Origin: Promethearchaeota archaeon
GTDB taxonomy: Archaea > Asgardarchaeota > Lokiarchaeia > Sigyniarchaeales > SOKP01
Direction: 5' to 3'
DNA: 64,000 bases
Assembly (NCBI GenBank): GCA_048940925.1
Contig: JBHLOC010000001.1
Coordinates: forward strand, 192,001-256,000
Positions 16,674 through 22,783 of the stretch are shown piece after piece. How positions within the stretch are numbered: position 1 is the first letter of the stretch; each line of letters begins with the position of its first letter. Position numbers and translations under genes: made by a program. The notes beneath the pieces are model-generated. The model made no database searches and had not been told where the DNA came from. It saw nothing but the letters and a program-made list of their open reading frames with translations.

Positions 16674-17129
16674 TTAACCCGATTGACTCTTTCTTTTAGC
16701 GAACAACTCTTTAAGCTCACCCATAATTGCACCTCTTAGAGATACTGGGCTTGCGGGACGGTTTGGTGCTGGAGCCGACCCTGGACCTCCAGGTGGTGGC
16801 GGTGGGCCTCCAGGAGGGCCTCCTGGTGGACTGCTCAGCGGTGGACCCCCCGGTGGGGCACCTAATGCAGGTGATGATACAGTAGATGTTGCGGAGGTTA
16901 CTGGACCACCTGCTTTAAGTGATGTAAGATCATTATTTATAGTTGTTAATTGATTTTGCAGATTAGTTACCCTTGTATTGACAGTTTGAAGACTTTGATC
17001 GACTAAATCAGAGATTTTTAGCACAATTTGCATTATTTTTTCAACAATATCTCCAAAATCATTGAGTTTTTCCTCTAGCGGAGCTTTTCGAGTAGTCTCT
17101 AAGAAGGAAGCAAATTCTTCTGCACACAT
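16674..17129 (-). CDS. Coiled-coil + polyproline + amphipathic basic helix protein (WASH/WAVE/VASP-like architecture)
   Basis: N-terminal heptads; GPPGGPPPPPGG; C-terminal RGAIMGELKELFAKRKSQSG. Confidence 0.6.
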   Translation of the reverse strand: MCAEEFASFLETTRKAPLEEKLNDFGDIVEKIMQIVLKISDLVDQSLQTVNTRVTNLQNQLTTINNDLTSLKAGGPVTSATSTVSSPALGAPPGGPPLSSPPGGPPGGPPPPPGGPGSAPAPNRPASPVSLRGAIMGELKELFAKRKSQSG

Positions 17130-17975: not shown

Positions 17976-19010
17976 TTATACAGAGAAAAGTGAAGTTAAA
18001 ATATTATCTCTATAATTTGCTTTTATAATTTTAACCTTGATGTTTTTTCCAATTAATCTATTAGGATTAGATATTGATTTACTTAAAAGTATTTTCACCC
18101 CAAAATTATCATTTATTTTTCCAATAAATTCATTTTTCCAACGTCCTTTTGAGATCACAGTTAAATTTATCATTTCATTTTTTTCTAATTTTGTAGAAAT
18201 ATCACTTTTACGTCTATGAATACCAAAATCCTTTGGACCAAGTTTCAGTTTTATATTATATTTTTTTTCTAAATTGGTTAATTGAGTATAGAAATAAGCC
18301 CAACTTTTAGGTTGTATTTTTTTCAATTTTCTACCAGTTTTATAAATTAAATATTTTTGTATACCAATTTGAATTTTATTATCAGAATAACCTTTCTTTC
18401 TTAAATTAATTATAAACTTAATTACATCTTCGATATCTTGATCATTTTCTCCAGGAAACCAGACTGGAGCAATAAGTAAATCAATATTAGTATTCAATAG
18501 AAAATGTAAATTTTCTATGAGATTATTAATATTATAATCATGACAATTACTTAAATAACTGGATTTTTCTTGATTTAAAGAATTAAGACTAACATTTATT
18601 CGAGTTAAATGAACTCTTTCAAGATTTTCAATAACTTCTTTTTTTAGTAATAATCCATTTGTTTGCATTGAAATAATTTCAATTCCTTTTATTTTCCAGA
18701 GATAATCGATCAATTCAAACAATTTAGGATAAAGGAGAATTTCACCATAAGGAGCTAAATGAATTTCAATCTTGTATTTTCCTTTAATTTTAACTATTTC
18801 TTTTACTTTTTCTATTATATACTCTGGATCAACAATAAAATTAGTGAGATAATCTCCAGCTCTCACAAAACAGTATTTACATTTCAAATTACATAAAGTT
18901 AGAGGTTTGAGTTCAATAACATTTGTACCCCTATCAATAACGCCAATAAAATCTATGCCATATAAAGGGATTTGTGACTTTTTATCCACATAAATTATTT
19001 CAGGTTTCAT
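17976..19010 (-). CDS. Radical SAM protein with C-terminal TRAM-like domain (COG2100-like)
   Basis: GVIDRGTNVIE, CNLKCKYC, QTNG, DFGIH. Confidence 0.88.
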   Translation of the reverse strand: MKPEIIYVDKKSQIPLYGIDFIGVIDRGTNVIELKPLTLCNLKCKYCFVRAGDYLTNFIVDPEYIIEKVKEIVKIKGKYKIEIHLAPYGEILLYPKLFELIDYLWKIKGIEIISMQTNGLLLKKEVIENLERVHLTRINVSLNSLNQEKSSYLSNCHDYNINNLIENLHFLLNTNIDLLIAPVWFPGENDQDIEDVIKFIINLRKKGYSDNKIQIGIQKYLIYKTGRKLKKIQPKSWAYFYTQLTNLEKKYNIKLKLGPKDFGIHRRKSDISTKLEKNEMINLTVISKGRWKNEFIGKINDNFGVKILLSKSISNPNRLIGKNIKVKIIKANYRDNILTSLFSV

Positions 19011-20089
19011 ATCCTATCAAGCTTATATCGTAATATTCCTACTATTGATCCCAGATTTACTAATTGTTCTCCAGGGATATTTTCTGTACTCATGATGTTT
19101 ACTGAACCTCCAGAATTTTCCACATTGGTTATAATTTCTTCGATTTTCAGCTTTTGTTCCTTATCTGTACCTCGAATCAATATATCTGCTATTAAAAGAT
19201 GTTTAATTGCGCCTCGTTCTGATGCTTTTGAAACTTCGTTAAAACCAATAACCACTAAATCAGCGTCTTCCCCAAACTGAGAAAGAACCTTTTCAACTAG
19301 GTGTGCTTCTTGTAAAATTTTTGCTCTTTTTTTAATGGTAGCTAATTCTTTTGATTTTAAAGTCTCTATTATAGCACTTTCTGTTCCCGAACTTGCATGA
19401 AAAATTTTTATTTTGTTCTTATAAGTTGTAGTGGCTGAATTTTTTATATAATTAATAAAATGGTTTTTTGTATTTCCAGGTCCACATATTATTATCAAAT
19501 TTATATCATAAGTCTCTAATTTTTCTTTTAAAATTCTCTCTATATCTCTAAAAAACTCGATTAATGCCTTATTTCTATAGGTTTGTTTGTATCTTTTACC
19601 AGGAATATTCTTTTTTATAGTTGCAACCCTTTCATGTCGAAAGTTAGTTATAAGAGCTAATGTTGCTAACCCAGTTTCAATGGCAATAATAAAAATAATA
19701 AAATTGCTTTCAAATTTTGAGCTTTCTTTCAATCGTCTTATCTCATGATTTAACCACTTTTCTTTTATTATAGAAATTATATGGTTTGTTTCTATATTAA
19801 ATGTGTGATAAGTGCCGTAACTAACAAAATCTTCAGGACCTTCTAATATTCTTCCTTTTATTCTTAACCGATTTGAGAACTCATGAAAAGAAGTACTTTC
19901 AACTTTTAATTTTAATCTCATTATTTTACGATCTCCCTTAGTACCTTCTTTAAGAACAACTCTTCTTTGAGTTATAGATGAGACTTCGTCATCTTTACTA
20001 ATTACATTATATAGCGTCCACAAGTCGTTAAGACTTTCAGTTTGAACTGTAATTTCACTCCGTTTTTGATTGATACTTAAAATTTTCAA
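19007..20089 (-). CDS. pelA: mRNA surveillance protein pelota
   Basis: DLWTLYNVI, RLRIKGRI, YHTFNI, IPGKRY, GPGNTK, LGSIVGILRY. Confidence 0.95.
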   Translation of the reverse strand: MKILSINQKRSEITVQTESLNDLWTLYNVISKDDEVSSITQRRVVLKEGTKGDRKIMRLKLKVESTSFHEFSNRLRIKGRILEGPEDFVSYGTYHTFNIETNHIISIIKEKWLNHEIRRLKESSKFESNFIIFIIAIETGLATLALITNFRHERVATIKKNIPGKRYKQTYRNKALIEFFRDIERILKEKLETYDINLIIICGPGNTKNHFINYIKNSATTTYKNKIKIFHASSGTESAIIETLKSKELATIKKRAKILQEAHLVEKVLSQFGEDADLVVIGFNEVSKASERGAIKHLLIADILIRGTDKEQKLKIEEIITNVENSGGSVNIMSTENIPGEQLVNLGSIVGILRYKLDRI

Positions 20090-20230
20090 AACTTGAATCT
20101 AACTCTTAAGGAGATACTTTTACTTAAAATTAATATACAGTATAAGATAAGCTTAATTTTATATTAAATCCATAAAAAATAAATTAAAATAAATAAAAAA
20201 AGAGAAACATAATCATTAAAAACAAAATTT

Positions 20231-20386
20231 TTAGTCTTTTGCCCCTAAAGCTTCTTTAACTTTCTCTAATTCTTCCATGCGTTTCTTCTTCTCTTCCTCT
20301 CTCTTTCTTAGCTCTTCTTCATCAACTTTCTGAAGTGAAACACCTTTTTTAATTTCATCTTGAAGTTCTTTATCTATTGGAGTCAT
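20231..20386 (-). CDS. Unannotated 51-aa WH2-motif protein (MTPIDKELQDEIKKGVSLQKVDEEELRKREEEKKKRMEELEKVKEALGAKD)
   Basis: Manually translated; ATG 20386, TAA 20231, GGTG SD-like site 10 nt upstream; LQDEIKKGVSLQKV fits the WH2 consensus LLxxIRxGxxLKKV. Confidence 0.7.
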   Translation of the reverse strand: MTPIDKELQDEIKKGVSLQKVDEEELRKREEEKKKRMEELEKVKEALGAKD

Positions 20387-20460
20387 TTTAATTTAACACC
20401 ATTTCTTTTATATTAATGTAAAAAAATTAATTTTAATACTTACAGTTATTATAATAGAAT

Positions 20461-20937
20461 TTATTTATAAGTTTTAGTTTGTAGAGAGACCATATTCAAT
20501 TCCATTAAAAATGCAGATTCTCCCGATTGATAATAATTTTCTAATATTTCTGGATTTTTTTTGAATTTAAATTTTTCATACAATTTAATCGCAATGTTAT
20601 TATTAACTTGAACGTTTAAAATTACTTTTGTTATTTCATTTAATTTTCTTATATATTCTATTGCTTTTTGTAGAAGCAATGTCCCGTATCCTCTTTTTTG
20701 AAAATCTGGATTAATGAGAAAGTTAACTATATTCGCTTTGTCTTTATTTTCTTTTATAACAACAATAAAACCGACTATTTTCTTTCTAAATTTACCGATC
20801 ACTAATTTTAGAAACAAAAAATTATTAGATATCAAATTGCTCAATAAATCCTTAGAAAAGGCATTTACTCCAAACACACTTTGTTCAAGCTGATATATCT
20901 TCTTTAAATCCCGAAATTTCACCTTTCTAATTTTCAT
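20461..20937 (-). CDS. RimI/Ard1-like GNAT N-acetyltransferase
   Basis: FQKRGYGTLLL, LNVQVNNNIAIKLYEKF, NYYQSGESAFLM. Confidence 0.9.
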   Translation of the reverse strand: MKIRKVKFRDLKKIYQLEQSVFGVNAFSKDLLSNLISNNFLFLKLVIGKFRKKIVGFIVVIKENKDKANIVNFLINPDFQKRGYGTLLLQKAIEYIRKLNEITKVILNVQVNNNIAIKLYEKFKFKKNPEILENYYQSGESAFLMELNMVSLQTKTYK

Positions 20938-22079
20938 TAAATCCCAAATTCTTTTTTAAAAAGTTTTATTGGAGTTTTTTCTGTTATTTGTTGATAAATT
21001 GGATTTCGAAAAGGAGTCATTTCTATAATAAAACCCTTTAATTGAAACTTATCAATTAAGGATGTTATTTTCCTATTGATTGAAACATATAAGGGAATTT
21101 TTATAATATCACCTGTAAAGTTTATTAAATCCTTTTTAATTTTAAATTCTGATAACAAAATGTTATAAAATTCGTTTAATTTTTCATTTTCACCCTCAAT
21201 TTGAGCAAATAATAACAATCCTTCATTACTAATCACTTCAAGGGGCAATTTAATGTTTTTAGCTCTTTTGATATATCTATTTTTTAATTGATAATAGTCT
21301 TTTGCTCTGATTGAGCAGTAATGTATTTTTAAAGAGACTTTTGAACTTAACTTATTCAGAATATTAAGAGCAGTTTCATTGCTATTAACTACAGATGCTA
21401 TTGTTCCTTCTTTTAAAGTAAAACCTCGAGCTTTTAATGACCAACTGTTAGGAAAACAATATTCAAATTCATTTAAATTAATGAAGCTAACACCAATATT
21501 ATCTAAATAAAGTACAAATTCTTCGAGATTTTTTATGTTATCTTCACTTGGAATAACAGGAACTTCTGCACCAACAGATATACCTCTATCTAATGCTTTT
21601 TCTATTTTTGACCATCGATCTTTAGGGGGATGGAATCTTATTTCATCTAAACCTGCAGCAACGAGAAGTTCGACAATTTTATCATTGAAATTAATCCCGT
21701 TTGTATAGAGATGAATATGAAATTTCTTGCCAAATTCAGATTTAGTAAATTTAATATAGTTAAGGGTTTTATCTATATTCGAATCTAAAAGTGGTTCACC
21801 CCCAGTAATACTCATCCCTTTAGCATCGACCTTGTAAACTTCTTCTAATAAATCCTCTTTAGAATTAATCTTTACTTCATTGATAAAAGTTATATCCATA
21901 TCTCTCCTTTCTCTCGAAATAGGACAATACCATGAACAATGATCTGGTTTTTGACAAATACCATTTAGAAATAATACTGCTTTTGCACCTTGTAAGCAAT
22001 ATTTACAACCTTTAGGTATTCCTCTTCCCTTAATGAAAAATGTCTTTTCTTTAGATTCTATAATTTTGGATTTTCTCAT
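20937..22079 (-). CDS. Radical SAM protein (COG2108-like)
   Basis: CQKPDHCSWYCP, ITGGEP, HIHLYT, LDEIRFHP, NLNEFE. Confidence 0.88.
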   Translation of the reverse strand: MRKSKIIESKEKTFFIKGRGIPKGCKYCLQGAKAVLFLNGICQKPDHCSWYCPISRERRDMDITFINEVKINSKEDLLEEVYKVDAKGMSITGGEPLLDSNIDKTLNYIKFTKSEFGKKFHIHLYTNGINFNDKIVELLVAAGLDEIRFHPPKDRWSKIEKALDRGISVGAEVPVIPSEDNIKNLEEFVLYLDNIGVSFINLNEFEYCFPNSWSLKARGFTLKEGTIASVVNSNETALNILNKLSSKVSLKIHYCSIRAKDYYQLKNRYIKRAKNIKLPLEVISNEGLLLFAQIEGENEKLNEFYNILLSEFKIKKDLINFTGDIIKIPLYVSINRKITSLIDKFQLKGFIIEMTPFRNPIYQQITEKTPIKLFKKEFGI

Positions 22080-22783
22080 ATTTTAAATAATTTTTTTCTT
22101 ACAATAGATTTCTGTTTAGCTAGTTTTTTAATCGCATCTTCAGTTGACTCATTTATTTGGATCTGCCTTTTTAAAAAAACTCCTGTTCTCCCATGCTTAT
22201 TTCTTCTAACTAATACTTTTTTACGCTCATTTATAGTATTAATACTGATTCCCACTTCTTTTGCCGCAAGGGCTTCATTTCCAATGATAGAAATTTCCTC
22301 ATGTCCTTTAATGCTTGGTTTGATTAAAACTAATCTCTTATCTATACCTGGGACTCTGATATCTAATTTAAGTTGATTAAAATTTATCTTCCCTCCAAAA
22401 TCATAAAATTCTATGTAATTTTTGTCCGGTTTAGACAACGGAATAGTTATAGACTCTAACTCGCTTAAATGAATATACAATTTTATTGTATCGAGAGGGG
22501 TTGCCATGATTATTTCTTTAAAATACTTTTCATAACCATATTTATTCAAAAGAATTTCAATTTTAAAAGATGGGATCTTTCGAAGAAAAATTACATCAAA
22601 ATCACTTGATTCATTTACATCTCCACGTGCAATACTTCCATGAATAAATGGATTGAAGCCTTCTTTAACAAAAATTTCTAATAAAGATATTGCTTCAGTT
22701 CTTTTTCTTTTTAATACAGACCAGTCATCATTCGTATATATTATATCACTGTAATGTTCTCTTAAGATTTTCTTGCTTGTCAT
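22076..22783 (-). CDS. Pol-beta-like nucleotidyltransferase (COG2413-like)
   Basis: HGSIARGDVNESSDFD, RVPGIDKRL, GRTGVF. Confidence 0.88.
   Translation of the reverse strand: MTSKKILREHYSDIIYTNDDWSVLKRKRTEAISLLEIFVKEGFNPFIHGSIARGDVNESSDFDVIFLRKIPSFKIEILLNKYGYEKYFKEIIMATPLDTIKLYIHLSELESITIPLSKPDKNYIEFYDFGGKINFNQLKLDIRVPGIDKRLVLIKPSIKGHEEISIIGNEALAAKEVGISINTINERKKVLVRRNKHGRTGVFLKRQIQINESTEDAIKKLAKQKSIVRKKLFKI

What the first reader, a model, noticed from the sequence alone, without database searches (positions are those of the whole stretch)
20231..20386. Hidden 51-aa ORF with a WH2 actin-binding motif
Seen: an ORF absent from the track, with ATG, a GGTG SD-like site and TAA, encoding DKELQDEIKKGVSLQKVDEEE followed by an E/K/R single helix and an amphipathic MEELEKVKEALG. 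Established: WH2 is a short helix plus LKK[TV]; WAVE-type WH2 reads roughly LLEAIRKGIQLRKVEE (recalled, needs checking). Inference: a stand-alone, thymosin-beta-sized G-actin sequestering or delivery peptide that gene callers would miss because of its size.
Basis: partly seen in the sequence, partly recalled or inferred. Interest (0 to 1): 0.9.

Follow-up and report, generated by a model that had tools for sequence, protein, structure and literature searches.

The report
Conserved Lokiarchaeal WH2-like micro-protein gene
A real, strongly conserved 51-residue gene of one order of Loki-type Asgard archaea carries a motif resembling the eukaryotic WH2/beta-thymosin actin-binding peptide, and the same module is fused to archaeal profilin or repeated ten times in relatives, which makes it a good but unproven candidate actin regulator.

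Summary
The ORF is present exactly as described, on the minus strand (20386 to 20231). It is a real gene. More than 226 homologues of 49-51 aa are 75-96% identical. It stays 84-92% identical where its neighbours fall to 56-85%, and codon differences are concentrated at third positions. Conserved TATA-like, GGTG and T-tract signals flank it.

It is not really hidden: NCBI annotates homologues as hypothetical proteins, including those of the cultured Promethearchaeum syntrophicum and Lokiarchaeum ossiferum.

The WH2 likeness is real but weak.
- Pfam WH2 does not hit this protein, though one relative just passes Pfam's cut-off.
- Family profiles rank WH2 or thymosin peptides solved with actin first in the PDB, at marginal E-values.
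- The bare motif occurs at chance frequency in this genome.

The strongest functional clue is domain architecture. The roughly 46-aa unit occurs alone, as about 10 tandem copies, and fused to a bona fide Asgard profilin. It is also fused to LRR, RHH and small-GTPase domains.

The family is confined to one order (142 of 153 genomes sampled), so an origin before eukaryotes is not supported.

Earlier runs of this scan found homologues on other DNA and reached the same reading.

The parts
20231..20386 (-). Coding sequence of the 51-aa protein P0001. Residues 3-14 form an amphipathic helix (I4, L8, I12). G15 is followed by L18-x-K20-V21. Residues 22-36 are a charged helix, and residues 36-48 are an amphipathic stretch (R36, M37, L40, V43, L47, G48).
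   Evidence: conservation; coding signature
20397..20400 (-). GGTG Shine-Dalgarno-like site, 10 nt upstream of the ATG. Same-genus genomes keep AAGGTG or AAGGGG at the same spacing.
20448..20470 (-). Conserved A/T-rich TATA-like element about 62-84 nt upstream of the start. It overlaps the 3' end of the upstream GNAT gene and is a candidate own promoter.
   Evidence: sequence conservation only; no transcript data
20170..20210 (-). T-rich tract downstream of the stop codon, conserved in same-genus genomes. It looks like an archaeal oligo-T terminator.
20461..20937 (-). Upstream neighbour, a GNAT (RimI-like) acetyltransferase. It is a syntenic partner in families f1 and f2.
19007..20089 (-). Downstream neighbour, pelota. 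It is a syntenic partner in families f1 and f2, separated from the small gene by 141 nt that include the T tract.

Best explanation
The ORF encodes a stand-alone copy of a roughly 46-residue, lineage-specific module. I read this module as a WH2/beta-thymosin-like actin-binding peptide.

Inferred mechanism:
- The G15-x-x-L18-x-K20-V21 stretch lies extended on subdomain 1, as LKKT/V does.
- The conserved charged and amphipathic C-terminal helix makes a second contact, in the way the C-terminal helix of thymosin beta-4 does.
- The free 51-aa form would therefore hold or deliver actin monomers.
- The ten-fold tandem form would line up several monomers or run along a filament.
- The profilin-fused form would grip one monomer at two sites.

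Shown: a real, constrained gene; a conserved motif; weak but consistent sequence likeness to WH2/thymosin; fusion to true profilin.

Inferred: everything about actin contact.
For: 1. The gene is under strong purifying selection, stronger than on its housekeeping neighbours.

2. Family profiles searched against 177,635 PDB sequences rank WH2 peptides solved with actin first.
- Profile A1: N-WASP 3m3n_W at E 6.4e-4, 2vcp_D at 0.12, MIM 2d1k_C at 0.28.
- Profile A5: 3m3n_W at 9.5e-4, Spire 3mn7_S at 0.034, 2vcp_D at 0.1.
- Profile A7, the MK-D1-type subfamily: the thymosin-beta4/cordon-bleu hybrid 4pl8_H ranks first, at a non-significant E of 0.2.

3. Pfam WH2 gives several weak hits. It scores relative P0271 at 23.7 bits against a cut-off of 23.1 (E 3.6e-5). 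It hits 5 of 45 cluster representatives at E<=1. It is the only hit of the 492-aa tandem protein (E 0.07).

4. The language-model search gives a beta-thymosin cluster as the first named neighbour (score 0.86; a lead only).

5. The module is fused C-terminally to a domain that is an Asgard profilin.
- By sequence: 5zza_P at E 3.9e-14, plus 5yed, 5zzb and 7pbh.
- By predicted fold: Foldseek top hit is the OdinProfilin/actin complex, E 1e-8, TM 0.87.
- The fusion occurs in several genomes and with 1, 2 or 4 units.
- A profilin carrying a WH2-like helix that binds the same actin monomer is documented in Leishmania (PMC10907219).

6. The host's Lokiactin keeps the WH2-contact residues as I recall them from rabbit actin (from memory): YASGRTTG, L346/L349/T351/M355 and the acidic pair at positions 24-25 (sequence).

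7. AlphaFold models give helix, a 9-residue loop at G..L.K[VI]D, then helix, with no confident globular fold. This is compatible with a peptide that folds on binding.
Against: - Pfam WH2 gives no hit on P0001 or anywhere in its genome at E<=10. Pfam Thymosin hits no member.
- Single WH2 matches score only 6-14 bits. The best PDB E-value sums three near-identical repeats of an engineered construct.
- Other Pfam families score similarly on the family, so composition can produce such values: DUF3006 in 13 of 45 (best 4e-4) and the H-NS N-terminal domain in 7 of 45 (best 1.3e-4).
- The most conserved residues across the family (E32, K33, K35, R36, E39, L40) lie in the C-terminal helix, which has no WH2 counterpart.
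- The N-terminal helix varies between families, and G15 is lost in the MK-D1 and L. ossiferum versions.
- The unit is also fused to RHH, LRR and Ras-like GTPase domains.
- Conserved linkage is with pelota and a GNAT gene, not with actin genes.
- The bare motif occurs at chance frequency.
Confidence: 0.45

Rival explanations
1. The unit is a generic charged helix-loop-helix module for protein-protein contact or oligomerisation that does not touch actin. It would act as an adaptor or spacer in LRR, GTPase, RHH and profilin proteins, and the free form would be a regulator or competitor of those. Its likeness to WH2 would be convergent or accidental.
For: - The best conserved part is the E/K/R helix.
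- Pfam hits to coiled-coil-like families are as strong as those to WH2.
- The fusion partners are diverse.
- The bare motif occurs at chance rate.
- Pfam WH2 misses P0001.
Against: - The hydrophobic a/d pattern in the C-terminal helix covers only about 1.5 heptads (M37, L40, V43/K44, L47), too short for a stable coiled coil (sequence).
- AlphaFold gives no confident packing.
- The top PDB hits of three different family profiles are all WH2/thymosin-actin peptides.
- The fusion to true profilin is recurrent.
Confidence: 0.3
2. It is a small translation- or ribosome-associated factor that works with pelota (ribosome rescue) and the RimI-like acetyltransferase.
For: - The GNAT - small ORF - pelota order is kept in two families of the order.
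- The protein is very charged, as many ribosome-associated mini-proteins are.
Against: - It has its own conserved promoter-like and T-tract signals, and a 141-nt gap separates it from pelota.
- The linkage is lost in family f4.
- It is restricted to one order, whereas pelota and ribosomes are universal.
- No fusion to any translation domain was seen, while fusions to profilin were.
Confidence: 0.08
3. It is a nucleic-acid- or chromatin-associated mini-protein, as hinted by fusions to ribbon-helix-helix domains and weak H-NS-like hits.
For: - RHH+unit and LRR+unit+RHH architectures exist.
- Histone_HNS_N hits occur in 7 of 45 representatives.
Against: - The protein is net acidic to neutral, with alternating charge and no basic patch typical of DNA binders (sequence).
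- The H-NS hits fall on a coiled-coil region.
- The RHH domain supplies DNA binding by itself. RHH plus an actin-binding helix is the known ParR/ParM layout (from memory), so these fusions fit the actin reading as well.
Confidence: 0.05

Closest known systems
WH2 (WASP-homology 2) domain, Pfam PF02205 (WASP/N-WASP, WAVE, WIP, MIM, Spire, Cordon-bleu)
   Same: - A three-turn amphipathic helix is followed by G-x-x-L-x-K-V at the WAVE/N-WASP spacing.
- These positions are conserved in the family.
- WH2-actin structures are the best PDB matches.
- One relative passes Pfam's cut-off.
- The module occurs singly and in tandem arrays, as WH2 does.
   Different: - This protein itself does not reach any Pfam WH2 score.
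- The usual LL pair is E-L here.
- An obligatory, highly conserved 27-residue charged or amphipathic helix follows the motif.
- The repeat period is about 46 aa.
- It is found only in one archaeal order.
- No binding data exist.
Beta-thymosins and beta-thymosin repeats (thymosin beta-4, ciboulot, actobindin; Pfam PF01290)
   Same: - It is a free peptide of about 50 aa: N-terminal helix, LKKT-like motif, then a second helix.
- The MK-D1-type relatives read EIEEHDKSKMAKV. Thymosin beta-4 reads EIEKFDKSKLKKT, as printed for 4pl8_H.
- The first named language-model neighbour is a thymosin cluster.
   Different: - Pfam Thymosin hits no member.
- The PDB match has E 0.2, which is not significant.
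- The C-terminal helix is longer and far more charged.
WH2-like LKKT-type linkers inside Asgard gelsolins (Thor, Heimdall and Loki 2DGel; PMC7444086, PMC9433394)
   Same: It is an Asgard protein with an L-x-x-V/T motif that contacts actin subdomain 1.
   Different: Those are four-residue linkers between gelsolin domains, with no amphipathic helix of their own. They are not free peptides or repeats.
Leishmania profilin with an inserted WH2-like helix (PMC10907219)
   Same: Profilin and a WH2-like element sit in one chain, as in the profilin+unit relatives found here.
   Different: There the helix is an internal insertion. Here one to four complete units follow the profilin domain, with a further small C-terminal domain.
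Arcadin-2 of Crenarchaea (PMC5173319)
   Same: It is a short archaeal helix that sequesters an actin homologue by binding its hydrophobic groove, and it serves as an archaeal precedent.
   Different: No sequence likeness was found, the partner is crenactin, and the lineage is different.

Membership tests
WH2 domain (PF02205) | Score at or above Pfam's gathering cut-off (23.1 bits) | tested here: not met
   There is no hit on P0001 at E<=10 and none anywhere in its genome. Relative P0271 scores 23.7 bits. Five of 45 representatives hit at E<=1.
WH2 domain (PF02205) | N-terminal amphipathic helix of 2-3 turns with conserved hydrophobic face | tested here: met
   P3 is invariant within the close family. 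Position 4 is I/L/V/F, position 8 is L/M and position 12 is I. The segment is predicted helical in relatives. The helix is less conserved between families.
WH2 domain (PF02205) | LKKT/V-type motif 5-7 residues after the helix | tested here: met
   L18-Q-K-V21 follows the helix. L18 is invariant in all 45 cluster representatives. K20 is nearly invariant and V21 invariant in the closer alignments A1 and A3. Several members read LKKV.
WH2 domain (PF02205) | [quoted passage not shown] | not testable with these tools
Beta-thymosin (PF01290) | Match to the Pfam Thymosin model | tested here: not met
   There is no hit at E<=10 for P0001 or for 20 relatives.
Beta-thymosin (PF01290) | Free peptide of about 40-50 aa with a second helix after the LKKT motif | tested here: met
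   The stand-alone protein is 51 aa. The second helix is predicted in relatives. Whether that helix contacts actin is unknown.
Profilin (PF00235), for the fusion partner in relatives only | Profilin sequence and fold | tested here: met
   - Pfam Profilin gives E 2.5e-4 and 1.5e-3, below the cut-off.
- The profile against the PDB gives 5zza_P at 3.9e-14.
- The AlphaFold model against the PDB gives the OdinProfilin/actin complex at E 1e-8, TM 0.87, followed by Loki and eukaryotic profilins.

The most novel reading that the evidence does not exclude
The module is a true WH2/beta-thymosin-type actin-monomer binder of Lokiarchaeia.
- The free 51-55-aa form buffers or delivers Lokiactin monomers.
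- The ten-repeat 480-500-aa form is the missing filament nucleator or filament ruler of these cells.
- The profilin-fused form is a two-site monomer clamp.

This would be the first WH2-class regulator outside eukaryotes and their pathogens. It would be either homologous to the eukaryotic motif or a striking convergence on the same actin cleft.
Probability: 0.3. Interest if true: 0.88.

Novelty: new variant of a known kind. Interest (0 to 1): 0.66.

Why it matters
Known Asgard actin regulators are profilins and gelsolin/cofilin-like proteins. How Lokiactin filaments are nucleated and how the monomer pool is held is still open (10.1101/2025.11.30.690169).

A WH2/thymosin-like module that occurs free, in ten-fold arrays and on profilin would fill that gap. 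It is directly testable with a 51-residue synthetic peptide.

Both cultured Lokiarchaeia carry it:
- MK-D1: DSAG12_00453.
- L. ossiferum: WP_371806818.1, plus a 488-aa tandem protein.

The family is confined to one order, so it says little about the ancestor of eukaryotes. Its value lies in Asgard cell biology and in showing how actin's target cleft is exploited.

Tried and rejected
No complex prediction exists.
- The look-up of sequencing runs listed no RNA holder.
- The word-based search for longer fused forms found none. The exhaustive profile search later found them.
- NCBIfam gave nothing. Pfam Thymosin gave nothing.
- A single-sequence PDB search with the Harpocratesius homologue returned only coiled-coil noise.
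- The AlphaFold model of the 492-aa tandem protein had low confidence (pLDDT 56, pTM 0.16). The unit in the profilin fusion was also of low confidence. These models neither support nor exclude a folded hairpin.
- The L. ossiferum proteome and Lokiactin Co-IP table use GNAMCCOK tags that I could not map to WP_371806818.1.
- DUF3006 has no literature in the library. I treat these hits and the H-NS-like hits as compositional.
- The context of the RHH+unit gene in G006 shows no actin-like neighbour.
- The apparent absence of the gene in G006 and G020 is explained by the whole pelota region being missing from those assemblies.
- I did not build an hhalign test against WH2 sequences, because the only WH2 sequences available were those already picked by the family profile, which would be circular.

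Full report
**Observation.** Window 20231-20386 holds a 51-codon ORF on the minus strand. The ATG is at 20386-20384 and the TAA at 20233-20231. GGTG lies at 20400-20397, ten bases before the start.

The window is AT-rich (25-34% G+C) and belongs to a Loki-type Asgard genome (G000, contig C40). That genome carries a Lokiactin of 381 aa that is about 60% identical to eukaryotic actins.

**It is a real gene.**
- The word-indexed search returned 226 proteins of 49-51 aa at 75-96% identity. All were unnamed or 'hypothetical' and came from Asgard metagenome bins.
- 39 of 41 related genomes have a match.
- In seven same-genus genomes the order radical-SAM, GNAT, small ORF, pelota, radical-SAM is kept. 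The small ORF is 84-92% identical, against 56-75% for GNAT, 70-85% for pelota and 62-82% for the radical-SAM gene.
- Pairwise codon differences fall 148:60:367 on positions 1:2:3. Synonymous codon differences number 318 against 163 non-synonymous.
- Three flanking signals are conserved: an A/T-rich TATA-like element, an AAGGTG/AAGGGG site 9-10 nt before the ATG or GTG start, and a T-rich tract after the stop. The gene therefore looks like its own transcription unit.
- Two same-genus genomes without the gene also lack pelota, so that region is simply missing from those assemblies.
- The gene is not hidden in general. NCBI records carry it as a hypothetical protein, including in Promethearchaeum syntrophicum MK-D1 (DSAG12_00453, WP_162306523.1), Ca. 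Lokiarchaeum ossiferum (WP_371806818.1) and Ca. Harpocratesius repetitus.

**Distribution.** A profile search of 400 genomes of the phylum found the family in 142 of 153 genomes of the window's own order: f1 124/134, f2 13/14, f3 1/1, f4 4/4. It found none in 7 genomes of other families of the class. Elsewhere it found 3 of about 240. Those three are internal AELKASILSGVSLKKV motifs in an unrelated 270-310-aa helical protein, and they match the N-terminal half only. The family is therefore an order-level feature, not an Asgard-wide one.

**The module and its architectures.** The exhaustive profile search of 1.84 billion representatives gave 60 hits at E<=1e-3. Together with genome loci, these show one unit of about 46 aa. 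Its consensus is D.ELK..I..G..L.KVD..EL..REEEKKKR.EEL.K.K.AL. The unit occurs in these forms:
- Free proteins of 47-77 aa.
- About ten tandem copies in proteins of 479-497 aa, found in MK-D1, L. ossiferum, Harpocratesius and others.
- One, two or four units after a profilin domain, with a small C-terminal domain (P0284, P0300, L064-L068).
- A unit after LRR repeats and before an RHH-like segment. This includes the window genome's own protein at C78:75975-77243.
- A unit after a Ras-like GTPase (L071).
- A unit after an RHH domain (P0293 and G006).

In G000 only the window ORF and the LRR protein carry the unit.

**How WH2-like is it?** Evidence in favour:
- Profiles of the close family (A1), of 45 cluster representatives (A5) and of the MK-D1-type subfamily (A7) were each searched against all PDB sequences.
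  - A1: the best hits are N-WASP 3m3n_W (E 6.4e-4), a de novo TIM protein, N-WASP 2vcp_D (0.12) and MIM 2d1k_C (0.28).
  - A5: 3m3n_W (9.5e-4), Spire 3mn7_S (0.034) and 2vcp_D (0.1).
  - A7: the thymosin-beta4/cordon-bleu hybrid 4pl8_H ranks first, but at E 0.2.
- Pfam WH2 scores relative P0271 at 23.7 bits against its cut-off of 23.1. It hits P0256 at E 0.007. It hits 5 of 45 representatives at E<=1. It is the only hit of the 492-aa tandem protein, at E 0.07.
- The language-model search gives three unnamed look-alike clusters and then a 53-aa cluster in which 52% of members carry Pfam Thymosin. The score of 0.86 makes this a lead only.

Evidence against:
- Pfam WH2 does not hit P0001 or anything in G000 at E<=10.
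- Pfam Thymosin hits nothing.
- Single WH2 matches are worth only 6-14 bits. The best E-value sums three copies in an engineered construct.
- DUF3006 (13 of 45, best 4e-4) and the H-NS N-terminal domain (7 of 45, best 1.3e-4) score comparably on this charged family.
- A loose WH2 regex occurs in the genome's six-frame ORFs no more often than in shuffled ORFs.

The likeness is thus consistent across methods but sits in the twilight zone. It rests on about 17 residues.

**What is not WH2-like.** Across the 45 representatives the invariant or nearly invariant residues are G15, L18, E32, K33, K35, R36, E39 and L40. Most of the constraint therefore sits in the helix that follows the motif (KREEEKKKRMEELEKVK in the window protein). 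This helix has no WH2 counterpart, although beta-thymosins do have a second actin-contacting helix. The N-terminal helix varies between families, and G15 is absent from the MK-D1 and L. ossiferum versions.

**The profilin link.**
- The N-terminal 120 residues of the fusion proteins match Asgard profilin chains in the PDB at E 3.9e-14 to 8.4e-11 (5zza_P, 5yed/5yee, 5zzb, 7pbh).
- An AlphaFold model has pLDDT 70-86 over residues 1-122.
- Foldseek then finds the OdinProfilin/rabbit actin complex (E 1e-8, TM 0.87), LokiProfilin 1 and 2, and then yeast, plant and human profilins.
- This is the strongest functional evidence, because profilin's known job is to bind actin monomers.
- In Leishmania a profilin with an inserted WH2-like helix binds one monomer at both sites (PMC10907219).
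- The unit itself is modelled as helix, a 9-residue loop, then helix, at low confidence. This holds both in the fusion (pLDDT 27-63) and in the tandem protein (pLDDT 56, pTM 0.16). There is therefore no evidence for a stable fold of its own.

**Target site.** The Lokiactin of G000 keeps the residues I recall as WH2 contacts in rabbit actin: YASGRTTG, Y169 as F, L346, L349, T351, M355, and an acidic pair (E-D) at positions 24-25. This comparison is made from memory, not by a tool. Lokiactin is 88-100% identical across the order, which would fit a tightly constrained partner peptide.

I put direct actin binding at about 0.45. The alternatives are a non-actin helical adaptor at 0.3, a translation-linked role suggested by the conserved pelota/GNAT neighbourhood at 0.08, and nucleic-acid association at 0.05.

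**Literature.** In the held library, WH2-like motifs in Asgards are described only as four-residue linkers in gelsolins (PMC7444086, PMC9433394, 10.1101/2025.11.30.690169). The only archaeal peptide sequesterer of an actin homologue is arcadin-2 (PMC5173319).

**Earlier findings of this scan.** Homologues on other DNA were found before and read the same way. A later check there cut the spread to one order and priced direct binding at about one in three. My own distribution search, run before I read that note, gives the same restriction.

Noticed in passing
window 16674-17129 (-): A 151-aa protein with three parts: an N-terminal coiled-coil-like region, a proline-rich stretch (GGPPGGPPPPPGGP), and a C-terminal helix SLRGAIMGELKELF followed by KRK. 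The same I-M-x-E-L-K helix precedes the unit in the LRR, RHH and GTPase fusion proteins. Polyproline plus such a helix recalls WASP/VASP-type layouts. Pfam gives only coiled-coil noise.
   Followed up: partly
G000:C78:75975-77243 (L011:476-1747:+): The window genome's second carrier of the unit. It is a 423-aa protein with LRR repeats, one degenerate unit (aa 291-340) and an RHH-like C-terminal segment. Relatives replace the RHH with a zinc-ribbon (P0298). LRR plus a WH2-like element recalls leiomodin, but only by layout.
   Followed up: partly
G000:C7:31527-34200 (L018, L061): An actin paralogue that is 82% identical to Lokiactin. It is followed directly by a 419-aa gene with a profilin-like N-terminal domain and a winged-helix (TrmB-like) region. 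G000 has at least four profilin-like genes.
   Followed up: no
P0293; L074:4712-5116:- (G006); L071:577-1644:+: Two more architectures: RHH domain + unit, and Ras-like GTPase + unit + RHH. An RHH DNA-binding domain followed by a helix that binds an actin-like filament is the ParR/ParM layout (from memory). These proteins might therefore tether DNA or signalling proteins to Lokiactin. No actin-like neighbour was seen in G006.
   Followed up: partly
L079:1171-1971:+, L080, L081 (family f31, genus g79): In a distant Asgard family, a 270-310-aa all-helical protein carries an internal AELKASILSGVSLKKVDEE segment. This segment matches only the N-terminal half of the family profile. Pfam WH2 does not hit it.
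   Followed up: partly
P0283 (762 aa) and P0294 (169 aa), from the representative library: Two eukaryote-looking proteins retrieved by the N-terminal half of the profile only. P0283 has FHA, PP1-binding and SAP domains, plus more than ten repeats of TP.RN.IKAG..L..V (Pfam WH2 E 0.0021). P0294 has three repeats ending LKKT/LKRT followed by SVDKS.P (Pfam WH2 E 0.2). Their origin was not traced.
   Followed up: partly
L055:3-1358:+ (G024:C7): A 452-aa protein with an Arf/Ras-like GTPase domain, a basic stretch, PPPPPP, and a terminal IISELKELFIRRG helix like that of the window's 151-aa polyproline protein.
   Followed up: no
window 17976-22783 (-): A co-oriented run of genes: nucleotidyltransferase, radical-SAM, GNAT, the small ORF, pelota, radical-SAM. 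The GNAT - small ORF - pelota core is conserved across two families. In family f4 the small gene sits next to a MoxR-like AAA gene instead.
   Followed up: partly
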